UHGV virus genome: UHGV-2192570
Reading direction: 5' to 3' (one strand)
DNA from: a virus
DNA length: 21,366 bases
Part shown: positions 12,001 through 15,000 of the stretch, piece after piece
Layout: each line of letters opens with the position of its first letter
Numbering within the stretch: position 1 is the first letter of the stretch
Position numbers: made by a program

Positions 12001-15000
12001 GCCGCAATGATGGGAGGTGATGCCATAGTGAACGTTGTATGTAAATCAGGTGGTGTTGACTGGATTCATAACTGTTGGTCAACTGTTAAGTGCGTTGGTG
12101 ATGTAATAAAAAAATAACAGTTGCCATACTGAAGGTATTGATTAATACATGGAAACTGCAATTACGACGTGTGATTGCAGCTTACCGTTAGCTACCCCTG
12201 TTACAATTGCCCTCTTCCATCACAGCAAAATGCTACCCCCTTCACAGCCCCCTCGGAAGCCCCTCCGATGGGGTGAAAAATCCCTGAAAAACTGCGCAAA
12301 AAACTGCGCAAATCGATCATAAAACCGATCACAAAACCGATCACACAGACAAACAGAGCAAAGCCAGATATGACGCGGCTTGCAGGGGGATAGACCACCT
12401 CAAAAAGTGCGCAAAAAAATGCGCAAAACGAAACGCAACAGCCGCGCAAAACGAAACCGATACGCGATGATCGAAAAAGCGCGCAAATTTACCGGATTCG
12501 GGTAAGCAATTTTGCCTGATTTGGGCAAAATACGGTGTCGCCGTAACAGTGACATTGACACCAAAACAGTGACACACAGGAGGGCCGATGACCGAACGTT
12601 CACCAACAGAGATAATTCACGGGATTATTGAAGAGCAGGAGGAGCGTGAGTTAATCCTCATGATTGAAGAGCAGAGAGAACGCCAGCGCAAACAGGACGG
12701 CACGCAGTCGGACAGCGTGAGCGCAGAAAATTATGCGCGTGTTGTGGCTGATGTGCCGTGATGGTGTCGAACAGAGTAACTTAAAGTCACTCTGTGACCA
12801 GTTTTAAACGAGTCGCAAAAAGAGCCGGAGAAAAACCACGAATCTGGGGTTTTTTCTAAGCACGCTGTACACGGTGGAACATATGGTGGTCAGGAGACGG
12901 CAGGAGCAACGCCAGAACGCGCCCCGTACCAGTGGCATAAGCCGGAGCGGTTACGGCGGTAACTTGTTGATATTGTTCCAGAGTGCAAATTTGCACTTTG
13001 GCGCTGTAACTTACTGACCTTAAAGCAAAGCGCAAAATTGCGCCGCCTAGTGATGTAAGTATCTGGTATTGTTACAAAGCTCATTTTTGAGCTTTGGCCT
13101 AACCTACTGATATTTTCGGAAACCTCAATTTGAGGAGACCGCAAACGCAAAATTGCGCTGGCTACATCCCTCGCTTCTGAGGACTGTTAACAAGCTGCCT
13201 GAAAGACAGTCACAAGCTACGAAATTTTCGTAGGTCAACTTCTATCCAGTACATACCCAGAATTACGGGTATGTAACCACAGCTATTACGAGGTGATCGT
13301 TGATGCGTGACATTCAGCAGGTTCTGGAACGATGGGGAGCGTGGGCGGCAAATAATCACGAGGATGTGACCTGGTCATCCGTTGCTGCCGGATTTAAGGG
13401 ACTGATCCCCGAAAAAGTAAAATCACGTCCACAGTGCTGTGACGATGATGCGATGGTGATATGCGGGTGCATAGCCCGCCTTTACCGGAACAATCGCGAT
13501 CTGCATGACTTGCTGGTTGATTACTACGTGCTGGGGAAAACGTTTATGGCGCTGGCACGTAAGCATGGATGCTCTGATGGACATATCGGAAAGCGGCTAC
13601 AGAAAGCGGAAGGTGTTGTTGAAGGCATGCTGATGATGCTGGATGTGAAGCTGGAGATGGATCGGTATGTTGAGCGCGATTCAGTGACGGCATAACGCGC
13701 ATAAAAAAAACCGCAGCCATGAGGAAACTGCGGTGGAGAAATACGGCTTGCCAATCAATCATGAAAAACGTAATCGCCTGATAATTATGCCACGAGACAA
13801 AGGACGGTGCACCCTGAATGGTCATAATGACCACTCAGACCATCAAGGCAACCATAACGAACATCGTTACGGTTGGAACTTTTACCCCATTGGGGGAAAA
13901 GGTGCATACCTGAATCATCATTATGGTGATCAAGGGTATGTAAAGCCCACCAGCCTGATTAAAGGTTAACCGGAAAAAGCCAGGTATGGAGGGAGTGGTT
14001 AGCCACGAACAAGCCGGACACCGCGCCAGTAAAAACCACAGATTCGTGCTTTTCTTCAGCCAGGGTAAGAACGCCACGGGGATTAATCCGTCGTGCTGGT
14101 GGAATCAGTCGGCAGCATGACGAACAGGCCGCGCAGCCGGACACCGCCAGCAGAAGGTATTATGATTTTCGTAATACCTTTAGCAAAGCGTGAATCATCA
14201 TTACCGTAGGGATGGTCATAATGACCACACCTTCCCCCACCGGAACAAGGAAGGCTGGCCTACGAAAATTTCGTAAAATTCCCCCCAAAATCCCTCCCAC
14301 GGTTGCCCGTTAAGTGCAAGCGCACAGGAACGACCTCGTTAACCAGTTACCAGCGCTCACGCTCAAATATCCACATGAACGGGGATAAATCGCATTCTGG
14401 CGCAATGTTCACTATCGGGGCGAGCATTCAGCGGAAAGCGTCATACAGGCTTACAGGCGGCTTAAAATTCGATGGACGGAGGACCGGATGGGAATCGGGA
14501 GACCTGGACAAAAAGTGCAGGCCTCCATGACACGGTCAGGACAGTTTGTGTTTAACCAGAATATTTAGCGCCTGTATCGGGGCTTCGTGGAGTTCCCGCA
14601 GACATTCAGGGTCAGTTACATGTTCCTGGTATCTTGTTTTCTCAAGTAACAAGCGGTGCATGTGCAGCATACGGGCAAGAGCCGCGCACACCTCCTCAAA
14701 TGCGGTATCCCGCTTACCGTCACTGTCAGAGCCACAAAACAGCGGCACAACCTCCACGCCGTCGCTGTGGGCCTTTAGCCAGGCATCAACCACGGTTAAA
14801 TCATCGGTGAAGAACCACGCACTGTTAGCGCTGAATCGCATTTTCCAGGCTTCCGGTACTGGTTGCGGGGAGTATGAATATGCTGGTGGTATCTTGTCGT
14901 GAGTATCCATAGGCTATCGTTCCGTCATTCTGTTATTCACCACGGCGCTAAAAACGCCATGAAGGACCAGAATACCGATTGCCTCGTTTGCTGTATGAGG

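What the first reader, a model, noticed from the sequence alone, without database searches (positions are those of the whole stretch)
12982..13158. Five palindromes with a shared AT centre but covarying arms upstream of the Q gene
The elements keep a CAAA(A)TTTG-like centre while the arms differ yet remain self-complementary (AGTG/CACT, GCGC/GCGC, AAGCTCA/TGAGCTT, CCTC/GAGG). Arm covariation argues for hairpin structure rather than one sequence-specific operator. The location in the leader before Q is where lambdoid phages place nut/boxB-like RNA hairpins and terminators.
Basis: partly seen in the sequence, partly recalled or inferred. Interest (0 to 1): 0.5.

Follow-up and report, generated by a model that had tools for sequence, protein, structure and literature searches.

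The report
Phage Rha/Roi site mimics in a satellite
The five small palindromes upstream of the Q gene are real, but rather than nut-like RNA hairpins they are a tandem array of about 48-base modules (an IHF-type box plus a variable palindrome) that copy a short internal control segment of phage Rha/Roi regulator genes, so a phage satellite seems to carry a catalogue of look-alikes of other phages' regulatory sites.

Summary
Five perfect or near-perfect dyads lie at 12982-13157, more than shuffles give, with a shared CA(A/T)nTG centre and differing complementary arms.

The nut/terminator interpretation is not supported:
- There is no boxA, no U-tract and no strand bias.
- Both strands fold equally well.
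- The same modules occur at the right end of Q-less cf-PICI satellites.

The window (1-~15432) is a PICI-like satellite. The palindromes belong to tandem ~48-nt units. Each unit is a box TAAC-N4-TGAT(ATT), the reverse of the IHF consensus WATCARNNNNTTR, with a dyad centred ~19 nt further on.

Units match, allele by allele and in antisense orientation, one short segment of phage pRha-domain genes:
- roi: ..PQIEVSERINNLG..
- rha: ..RNFALCFxINxL..

In those genes a dyad and an IHF consensus are held by codon choice.

Best reading, at moderate confidence: a DNA-level array of Rha/Roi-type dyads paired with IHF sites, which binds phage regulators as a decoy, sensor or roadblock ahead of Q. The main rival is a + strand RNA antisense to phage rha/roi mRNAs.

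I found no description of the array in the papers I could search. Its function is inferred, not shown.

The parts
12588..12962 (+). Disrupted homologue of the 93-aa ORF (phrog_1561) that follows terL in cf-PICIs. The first 57 codons are open (12588-12761). The C-terminal remnant ..YQWHKPERLRR* ends at TAA 12960-12962, inside the first box.
   Evidence: Alignment to L010 13409-13690.
12960..13001 (.). Unit 1. Box TAACTTGTTGATATT (12960-12974), a perfect IHF consensus TATCAACAAGTTA on the - strand. Dyad CCAgAGTGCAAA|TTTGCACTtTGG (12978-13001, core 12982-12997). The dyad centre is 19.5 nt after the box TGA.
   Evidence: The minus-strand reading KCKFALWNNINKL weakly resembles Rha RRNFALCHEINDL. 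No phage partner was found.
13007..13043 (.). Unit 2. Degenerate box TAACTTACTGA (13007-13017). Dyad GCGCAAaaTTGCGC (13030-13043).
   Evidence: Its reverse complement is 36/41 identical to a Rha-family gene (L277) and reads RRNFALCFKVSKL.
13056..13096 (.). Unit 3. Degenerate box TAAGTATCTGGTATT (13056-13070). Dyad CAAAGCTCAttttTGAGCTTTG (13075-13096).
   Evidence: It aligns with the roi segment encoding KVQYEHY, which is an imperfect dyad there. No exact phage partner was found.
13100..13145 (.). Unit 4. Box TAACCTACTGATATT (13100-13114), an IHF consensus TATCAGTAGGTTA on the - strand. Dyad CCTCAAtTTGAGG (13123-13135) within the imperfect long dyad 13113-13145.
   Evidence: It is 80% identical over 73 nt to the inside of roi in phage PhiR49_2 (E=4e-7). 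The same segment is in 53 phage records. The minus strand reads LRSPQIEVSENISRLG against Roi VRSPQIEVSERINNLG.
13146..13157 (.). Unit 5. Dyad CGCAAaaTTGCG without a box of its own, fused to unit 4.
   Evidence: In cf-PICIs the same dyad follows a full box, GGTAACTTGCTGATATTcccgataaCGCAAaaTTGCG. It is the antisense of the RNFA codons CGC AAT TTT GCG of Rha genes.
13158..13236 (.). Most conserved segment of the region (94% identical to cf-PICIs). It carries the hairpins CCTC..GAGG (13169-13182) and CTACGAAAtTTTCGTAG (13217-13233).
   Evidence: Most of the 327 matching E. coli records match this segment, and it is unannotated in the listed rows that match it alone.
13250..13275 (.). Hairpin TACATACCC-agaattac-GGGTATGTA, just before the Q ribosome-binding site.
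13300..13695 (+). Q-family antiterminator gene (131 aa).
   Evidence: PF06530, 4e-53; phrog_79.
13710..13734 (-). Strong intrinsic terminator on the minus strand, directly after the Q stop codon. It would stop leftward transcription before Q and the array.

Best explanation
The palindromes are the variable half of a tandem array of ~48-bp modules carried by a PICI-type phage satellite.

Each module has two parts:
- An IHF-consensus box, TAAC-N4-TGAT(ATT).
- A dyad centred ~19 bp from the box.

Each module is a non-coding, antisense-oriented copy or mimic of one short segment of phage pRha-domain regulator genes (rha, roi). In those genes the same pair of features lies in the codons for ..RNFA../..PQIEV.. 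and ..INxLG.. and is kept by codon choice.

I propose that the array works as double-stranded DNA. IHF bends each box, and Rha/Roi-type proteins of co-resident phages (helper or competitor) bind the neighbouring dyads. Different dyads would serve different Rha/Roi alleles. The array would then titrate or sense these phage regulators. Because transcription towards Q has to cross it, the array would also act as a protein roadblock that gates Q.

What is shown:
- The module anatomy.
- The fixed geometry.
- The homology to rha/roi segments.
- The codon-level conservation in phage genes.
- The unit turnover between satellites.

What is inferred:
- Binding by IHF and Rha/Roi.
- The decoy, sensor or roadblock role.
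For: - Module anatomy: 46 unit variants from related loci share the box and a dyad.
- Geometry: in 26 loci with arrays of at least 3 units, the dyad centre lies within +/-0.5 nt of one position in 80 of 93 units, whatever the stem length.
- IHF consensus: WATCARNNNNTTR occurs 9 times in the window against 2.0 expected, and two of these are array boxes.
- Unit 4 hits the inside of roi (E=4e-7).
- When 11 other unit types were searched against phages, the listed matches to three of them fell antisense in roi, 'DNA-binding protein' or anti-repressor genes; three fetched Stx-phage examples lie at about codons 41-55. A fourth type hit a KilA-N gene, a fifth an unannotated record, and the rest had no listed hit.
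- Each Roi allele has its own dyad centred on the first base of codon 47, followed by an IHF consensus. Satellite units match these dyads allele by allele.
- Two of the Roi dyads (11 and 12 bp) are significant even given the protein sequence (P=0.008).
- CGCAAAATTGCG units are the antisense of the RNFA codons. Unit 2 is 36/41 identical to a Rha gene.
- In protein-selected Rha alleles, 11 of 14 use exactly CGCAATTTTGCG, and one RNFS allele is compensated as CGAAATTTTTCG.
- Ile is ATC and Leu is TTA in 29 of 30 alleles, against backgrounds of 0.39 and 0.19 (part of this set was pre-selected by the search pattern).
- There is no strand asymmetry.
- Only unit-sized pieces match Rha/Roi proteins, so the array is not a decayed gene.
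- The half-site GCGCAAA also occurs as six direct repeats at 12294-12487, where it cannot form hairpins.
- Literature: Rha blocks lytic growth without IHF, and IHF regulates rha (PMC4936722). From my own memory, since the paper is not held: Clerget & Boccard 1996 showed that HK022 Roi binds a site inside roi next to an IHF site, and that IHF stabilises the binding.
Against: - No binding data exist for this DNA.
- Arms that covary without sequence conservation fit a structure-based element more simply than many co-evolved protein specificities.
- Two of the four boxes in the window are degenerate.
- No phage partner was found for units 1 and 3.
- HK106, a proven helper of the cf-PICI EcCIEDL933, has no roi in its nin region, so the array cannot be needed for that helper interaction.
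- The satellite's own Rha-like gene lacks the module.
- cf-PICIs with arrays have no Pfam-detectable Rha.
- Box conservation could simply be inherited from the conserved INxL codons.
- If the region is transcribed to express Q, a + strand RNA antisense to rha/roi is made as well.
Confidence: 0.42

Rival explanations
1. Antisense RNA array. The + strand transcript (the 3' end of the packaging operon in cf-PICIs, the Q leader here) carries a string of hairpins complementary to rha/roi mRNAs of several phage alleles. It pairs with them, starting from hairpin-hairpin contacts, and silences those regulators.
For: - The units are antisense to rha/roi relative to the flanking satellite genes in every locus examined.
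- Perfect complementary runs of 22-31 nt exist.
- The stop codon of the upstream ORF lies in the first box, so the array is co-transcribed in cf-PICIs.
- No promoter was found between the array and Q.
- This satellite encodes a ProQ/FinO-domain protein and C4/isrK antisense-type RNAs.
- Purely Watson-Crick stems are expected if both partners must fold.
Against: - The middle (NNNN) of the satellite boxes differs from that in the roi alleles, while the IHF-consensus positions are kept.
- Some units differ from the genes by 1 nt in spacing.
- cf-PICI L010 has no ProQ.
- The fixed distance from the box to the dyad centre has no obvious RNA rationale.
- There is no transcript evidence.
Confidence: 0.25
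2. Cis-acting leader. The hairpins act on the satellite's own transcript, as attenuators, processing or stability elements, or put/nut-like modifiers, to control Q.
For: - The position is immediately upstream of Q.
- The predicted folding is strong (z = -5.5).
- Pairs are compensated.
Against: - There is no boxA, no U-tract and no Rfam match.
- The minus strand folds equally well.
- The same modules occur in Q-less satellites.
- The idea does not explain the IHF boxes or the homology to rha/roi.
Confidence: 0.12
3. Non-functional debris. The units are leftover fragments of rha/roi genes picked up by recombination, and the palindromes are simply inherited from the source genes.
For: - Homology to gene segments.
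- Mosaic surroundings with a disrupted ORF.
- Units 2 and 3 have degenerate boxes.
Against: - Only the same ~48-nt segment is ever present, repeated 3-8 times.
- Stems stay perfect in non-coding DNA, with compensated changes between close relatives.
- A roi segment that is only an imperfect dyad is a perfect 9-bp stem in the satellite.
- The region matches in 327 E. coli records.
Confidence: 0.1
4. Packaging or other architectural site. An IHF-assisted cosB/pac-like or partition-like array is recognised by the satellite or helper terminase.
For: - It lies next to terS-terL in cf-PICIs.
- IHF sites combined with repeats recall lambda cosB.
- No lambda-type cosN occurs elsewhere in the window.
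Against: - Unit number and order vary between close relatives.
- The dyads differ from each other.
- The homology to rha/roi is unexplained.
- In HNH-type cos phages, cos lies between hnh and terS. That gap exists in cf-PICIs and has no match in the window.
Confidence: 0.06

Closest known systems
Intragenic Roi-binding site with adjacent IHF site in the roi gene of phage HK022 (Clerget & Boccard 1996, recalled from memory), and IHF control of rha in phi80/P22 (Henthorn & Friedman 1995, cited in PMC4936722)
   Same: - Same sequence segment: unit 4 is 80% identical over 73 nt, with 27-31 nt perfect runs.
- Same pairing of a dyad with a WATCAANNNNTTR site.
- Same spacing.
   Different: - The satellite copies are non-coding.
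- They are antisense to the neighbouring genes.
- They are multimerised into arrays of different alleles.
- They lie in a satellite with no cognate roi.
- Binding has not been tested.
Lambdoid nut sites (boxA + boxB) and HK022 put RNAs
   Same: Box-plus-hairpin layout in a transcribed leader, in a genome that uses antitermination.
   Different: - No boxA.
- The loops and stems are unlike boxB.
- No N-like gene was identified.
- Both strands are equivalent.
- The array also occurs without Q.
Lambda cosB (R sites + IHF site I1)
   Same: Repeats interleaved with IHF sites, close to terminase genes in cf-PICIs.
   Different: - No cosN.
- The dyads are heterogeneous.
- The array composition is unstable.
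Phage antisense RNAs against ant-type regulators (P22 sar; P1/P7 c4, also present in this window at 5754-5841)
   Same: Nucleic-acid-level control of Ant/Rha/Roi-class regulators, possibly in antisense orientation.
   Different: - Those act on their own operon.
- This would be a multi-allele array aimed at other phages.
- No RNA has been shown.
Repetitive IHF-binding palindromic elements (RIP/BIME-1) of E. coli
   Same: An IHF site flanked by palindromes.
   Different: - REP palindromes are G+C-rich with a fixed consensus and are scattered around the chromosome.
- These units are A/T-centred, variable and confined to satellites.

Membership tests
Lambdoid nut site (boxA/boxB) | boxA consensus (CGCTCTTTAAC-like) a few bases upstream of the hairpin | tested here: not met
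   No match with up to 2 mismatches anywhere in 12000-14000.
Lambdoid nut site (boxA/boxB) | boxB: a 5-bp stem closing a 5-nt purine-rich GNRA-like loop, functional on one strand only | tested here: not met
   - The loops are 0-4 nt and A/T-closed.
- Both strands fold equally well.
- There is no G:U bias.
Intrinsic terminator | G+C-rich stem followed by a T-run on the transcribed strand | tested here: not met
   The scan found none on the + strand of 12760-13300. The only hit is 13044-13029 on the - strand.
Any curated RNA family (Rfam 15) | A covariance-model match | tested here: not met
   Nothing in the region at the gathering threshold. At E<=5 there was only a chance-level mir-10 hit.
Rha/Roi intragenic dyad + IHF module | Sequence homology to the pRha-gene segment encoding ..RNFA/PQIEV..INxLG.. 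| tested here: met
   - Unit 4: E=4e-7, 73 nt.
- Unit 2: 36/41 identical to a Rha gene.
- Unit 5: the RNFA dyad.
- Unit 1: weak.
- Unit 3: only the neighbouring roi segment.
Rha/Roi intragenic dyad + IHF module | IHF consensus WATCARNNNNTTR at a fixed distance (~19 nt) from the dyad centre | tested here: met
   - Perfect in units 1 and 4, degenerate in units 2 and 3, absent in unit 5.
- The geometry holds in 80 of 93 units and in the genes.
Rha/Roi intragenic dyad + IHF module | Lies inside, and in the sense orientation of, a pRha-domain ORF | tested here: not met
   Non-coding tandem units. Only 12-16-aa pieces match Rha/Roi. The units are antisense to the flanking genes.
Rha/Roi intragenic dyad + IHF module | Bound by IHF and by the Rha/Roi protein | not testable with these tools
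   Needs EMSA, footprinting or ChIP.
Lambda-type cos site | cosN (GGGCGGCGACCT-like) with adjacent terminase-binding repeats | tested here: not met
   No cosN-like sequence with up to 2 mismatches near the array.

The most novel reading that the evidence does not exclude
The array is a heritable catalogue of allele-specific mimics of one control segment of phage Rha/Roi regulator genes. It lets PICI and cf-PICI satellites neutralise or sense these regulators from many different phages, either as DNA decoys working with IHF or as antisense RNA. The hypervariable, palindrome-encoding loop of roi alleles would be the phage side of the same arms race. This would be a nucleic-acid-only interference or sensing module in the accessory end of satellites, resembling an immune repertoire in logic.
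Probability: 0.2. Interest if true: 0.85.

Novelty: new variant of a known kind. Interest (0 to 1): 0.62.

Why it matters
- Satellites are known to exploit or block phages with proteins. A repeat array that copies a cis-regulatory segment of phage regulator genes would be a different, protein-free route of satellite-phage interaction.
- It would give a function to a conserved but unannotated region that matches in 327 complete E. coli records.
- It revives an old, little-followed observation (Rha/Roi and IHF). It shows that pRha-family genes hold a dyad plus an IHF site inside their coding sequence through codon choice, and in roi with allele-specific palindromes. That is a testable case of a regulator whose target site is written in its own codons.
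- For annotation, it warns against calling such hairpin runs nut sites or terminators.

Tried and rejected
- Rfam at the gathering and E-value thresholds: nothing relevant.
- tRNA or tmRNA: none.
- Lambda-type cosN: absent.
- boxA: absent.
- The isrK/AntQ system of Gifsy-1: a different layout, with no bearing on the array.
- A 15-mer scan of genome contigs was too short and gave almost only chance hits. Only Shigella L050 was useful, and that scan is now spent.
- The cf-PICI HNH-terS gap as a shared cos: no match in the window.
- The satellite's own Rha-like and AntA proteins compared with Roi: no similarity. The satellite's rha-like gene has no module.
- Exact-dyad scans for units 1 and 3 in viral contigs gave chance hits or other satellites, with no phage gene partner.
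- PDB sequence search with the Roi N-terminal domain: no usable structure.
- Structure prediction was not possible for the phage proteins because of tool restrictions.
- The Clerget & Boccard 1996 paper could not be read.
- Synonymous-recoding test: not significant for the PQIEV, PPMGI and APMAN alleles once the protein is fixed.
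Full report
**1. The observation**

- 12982-12997: AGTGCAAATTTGCACT
- 13030-13043: GCGCAAAATTGCGC
- 13075-13096: CAAAGCTCAttttTGAGCTTTG
- 13123-13135: CCTCAAtTTGAGG
- 13146-13157: CGCAAaaTTGCG

They share a C-A-(A/T)n-T-G centre and have different but complementary arms. Five such stems in 177 nt is more than dinucleotide shuffles give (P=0.010 for the number, P=0.003 for the summed stem length). A third of all stems of at least 6 bp in the 21-kb window fall between 12982 and 14275.

Three more hairpins follow, at 13169-13182, 13217-13233 and 13250-13275. The gene downstream is a Q-family antiterminator (13300-13695).

**2. Context**

Window 1 to about 15432 is one PICI-like satellite. 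Its features are:
- a P4-type integrase
- int-alpA RNA
- Rha-like and AntA proteins
- an Ash-like ORF with isrK and C4 RNAs
- a DUF927 primase
- SSB
- a ProQ/FinO-domain protein
- PerC
- Q

Close relatives in E. coli end at the same point. One of them sits next to clpS.

The stretch 12120-13300 is essentially non-coding. The short ORF 12588-12761 and the remnant ending at TAA 12960-12962 are the two ends of a disrupted homologue of a 93-aa ORF (phrog_1561). In capsid-forming PICIs (cf-PICIs, EcCIEDL933-like) that ORF follows terL.

**3. The palindromes belong to repeat units**

I aligned the window with related satellites: Q-type L001 and L012, and cf-PICIs L002, L003, L010, L011, L022, L031, L040 and L050. 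This showed the same short modules in different numbers and orders.

Extracting the modules gave 46 unit variants of one design:
- a box (c)GG-TAAC-NNNY-TGA-TATT
- 8-12 nt of spacer
- a dyad of variable sequence

At least a dozen dyad types occur. Examples are CGCAAaaTTGCG, CCTCAAtTTGAGG, GGCTCAattcTGAGCC, TTCGCCagcGGCGAA, AATTTCCACtgactGTGGAAATT and TCCCCAtTGGGGGA.

The unit period is 44-55 nt (47, 49 and 44 nt in the window). In 26 loci that hold arrays of at least three units, the dyad centre lies at one position (+/-0.5 nt) relative to the box in 80 of 93 units, whatever the stem length.

The box is the reverse complement of the IHF consensus WATCARNNNNTTR. The window holds 9 perfect matches against 2.0 expected. 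Two of them are the boxes of units 1 and 4. The boxes of units 2 and 3 are degenerate, and unit 5 has lost its box.

Pairing is maintained through change:
- U1 against U3, and U1 against U2.
- Window unit 2 against the unit at the same place in L001/L012.
- L003 against L014: GCGCAA/TTGCGC to GCTCAA/TTGAGC in otherwise near-identical DNA.

**4. Where the units come from**

A search of phage genomes with the array gave one significant hit. Unit 4 is 80% identical over 73 nt to the inside of the roi gene of phage PhiR49_2, on the opposite strand. The same segment is present in 53 phage records, annotated Roi, anti-repressor or DNA-binding protein. In HK620, roi lies in the nin region.

There the sense strand encodes ..V(I/V)R(S/L)PQIEVSERINNLGF.. 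of the N-terminal pRha domain:
- CCTCAAATTGAGG is P-Q-I-E-V.
- AATCAATAACTTAGG, a perfect IHF consensus, is (R)-I-N-N-L-G.

I then queried phages with 11 other unit types. The listed hits were individually weak (E from 4e-3 to 0.7). Three unit types hit, antisense, roi, 'DNA-binding protein' or anti-repressor genes. In the three Stx-phage examples I fetched, these are 708-nt genes next to cro, and the match lies at about codons 41-55. The other two hits were a KilA-N gene (ST64B sb54) and an unannotated Klebsiella phage record. The remaining types gave no listed hit.

Reading those genes shows that each Roi allele has its own dyad centred on the first base of codon 47, followed by an IHF consensus:

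| Allele | Dyad |
|---|---|
| PQIEV | CCTCAAATTGAGG |
| PPMAV | CGGAAACcGCCAaTGGCtGTTTCCG |
| PPMGI | TCCCCCAATGGGGA |
| APMAN | CGAAgTGCGCCAATGGCGaATTTCG |
| PQTVEI | CAATTTCCACAGaCTGTGGAAATTG |

Satellite units match these allele by allele.

The commonest satellite dyad, CGCAAAATTGCG (units 2 and 5 here), is the antisense of CGC AAT TTT GCG. These are the R-N-F-A codons of classical Rha proteins, and an ATCA(A/G)NNNNTT (I-N-x-L) follows 12 nt later. The reverse complement of window unit 2 is 36/41 identical to such a gene and reads RRNFALCFKVSKL.

tblastn of Rha/Roi proteins against the window matches only these 12-16-residue pieces. The array is therefore not a decayed gene.

**5. Are the dyad and the IHF site functional in the phage genes?**

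- In Rha alleles collected by protein similarity alone, 11 of 14 distinct alleles use exactly CGCAATTTTGCG, although neighbouring synonymous sites vary.
- An RNFS allele has CGAAATTTTTCG, a compensated stem.
- The Ile and Leu of INxL are ATC and TTA in 29 of 30 alleles. The backgrounds in the same genes are 0.39 and 0.19. Part of that set was pre-selected by the search pattern. The protein-selected subsets show the same bias.
- With the protein held fixed, the 11- and 12-bp dyads of two Roi alleles are still unexpected (P=0.008 each). The shorter ones are not.

Literature that I could read says Rha is detrimental to lytic growth without IHF, and that IHF regulates rha (PMC4936722). My recollection of Clerget & Boccard (1996) is that Roi binds a site within its own gene next to an IHF site, and that IHF stabilises the binding. 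That paper could not be retrieved, so this point rests on memory.

**6. How the array most likely works**

I favour a DNA-level reading, for four reasons:
- The conserved box is a site for a protein that binds double-stranded DNA.
- The distance from box to dyad centre is fixed.
- Neither strand is favoured.
- The half-site GCGCAAA also occurs six times as direct repeats just upstream (12294-12487), where it cannot form hairpins.

Under this reading, the satellite holds a row of Rha/Roi-type dyads, each with an IHF site, that binds such regulators from co-resident phages. The array would titrate or sense them. In this satellite it would also form a protein roadblock in front of Q, because no promoter lies between the array and Q.

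The main rival is a + strand RNA antisense to rha/roi mRNAs. The orientation, the co-transcription in cf-PICIs and the ProQ/FinO gene fit this. The boxes, however, differ from the roi alleles in their middle (NNNN) positions while keeping the IHF-consensus positions, and cf-PICIs lack ProQ.

Evidence against a simple helper-sensing role: HK106, a proven helper of EcCIEDL933, has no roi in its nin region.

The less likely readings are listed with the rivals: a cis-acting Q leader, inert debris, and a packaging site.

**7. Comparison with what is known, and novelty**

The unit corresponds to a known kind of site, the intragenic Roi/IHF site and IHF-controlled rha. It fails one defining feature of that site, because it is not inside a pRha ORF. 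Its multimerised, multi-allele, antisense arrangement in satellites was not described in any satellite paper I could search.

It is not a nut site, a terminator, a cos site or a REP-type element.

I rate it a new variant of a known kind. The anatomy and homology are well supported. The function is inferred.

Noticed in passing
window 12280-12490: Six direct repeats of (T/C)GCGCAAA on the + strand (12294, 12306, 12409, 12421, 12444, 12481) and three copies of AAAACCGATCAC (about 12322-12345). The layout looks like iterons. GCGCAAA is the half-site of the unit 2 dyad. It occurs 12 times in the window against 5.2 expected.
   Followed up: partly
L161, L163-L168 (phage roi-like genes), codons ~42-56: Each Roi allele encodes its hypervariable loop with an allele-specific near-perfect palindrome of up to 25 nt, followed by an IHF consensus held by codon choice. 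A regulator gene seems to carry a variable cis site in the codons of its own DNA-binding domain.
   Followed up: partly
window 13819-13833, 14213-14227, 14261-14275: Two identical 15-nt palindromes, TGGTCATaATGACCA, lie 394 nt apart. TACGAAAaTTTCGTA resembles the hairpin at 13217-13233. The stretch 13740-14300 has overlapping small ORFs on both strands (His-rich on +, hydrophobic on -), and I could not decide which of them code.
   Followed up: no
window 14079-14146: A second remnant of the 5' part of the 93-aa phrog_1561 ORF (84% identical to L010 13429-13496). This suggests a duplicated or mosaic satellite end.
   Followed up: no
window 4033-6066, with 5653-5729 and 5754-5841: The isrK and C4 antisense RNA matches (Rfam) lie inside the 3' part of a 677-aa ORF with an Ash domain. 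The long ORF is probably an over-call, or a fusion across an immI-like c4/icd/ant module.
   Followed up: no
window 15444-15474 and 8821-9050: Two IHF-consensus sites sit just beyond the satellite's mapped right end (~15432), probably part of the att region. Two more follow the primase gene, where a replication origin would be expected.
   Followed up: no
L010 13960-14090 (also L003, L022): Downstream of the array, cf-PICIs carry longer perfect palindromes (GAGTTGCAGATCTGCAACTC, TGATACCCAAATTTGGGGTATCA, AAACTACGG..CCGTAGTTT) that look like operators. I did not check their origin.
   Followed up: no
L022 unit AATTTCCACtgactGTGGAAATT vs L168 (Stx1_14040) AATTTCCACagtctGTGGAAATT: The stems are identical, but the 5-nt loop is close to the reverse complement of the loop in the other copy (four of five bases match it). 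The hairpin may have been flipped, as in template switching at a cruciform.
   Followed up: no
window 15433-21366: The DNA beyond the satellite end is a different element, with a phage major capsid protein E gene on the minus strand (17787-18863). The satellite therefore sits next to another phage-like element here, not next to clpS as in L001.
   Followed up: no
window 13710-13734 and 15089-15112: Two strong intrinsic terminators on the minus strand. The first lies directly behind the Q stop codon and would shield Q and the array from leftward transcription.
   Followed up: no
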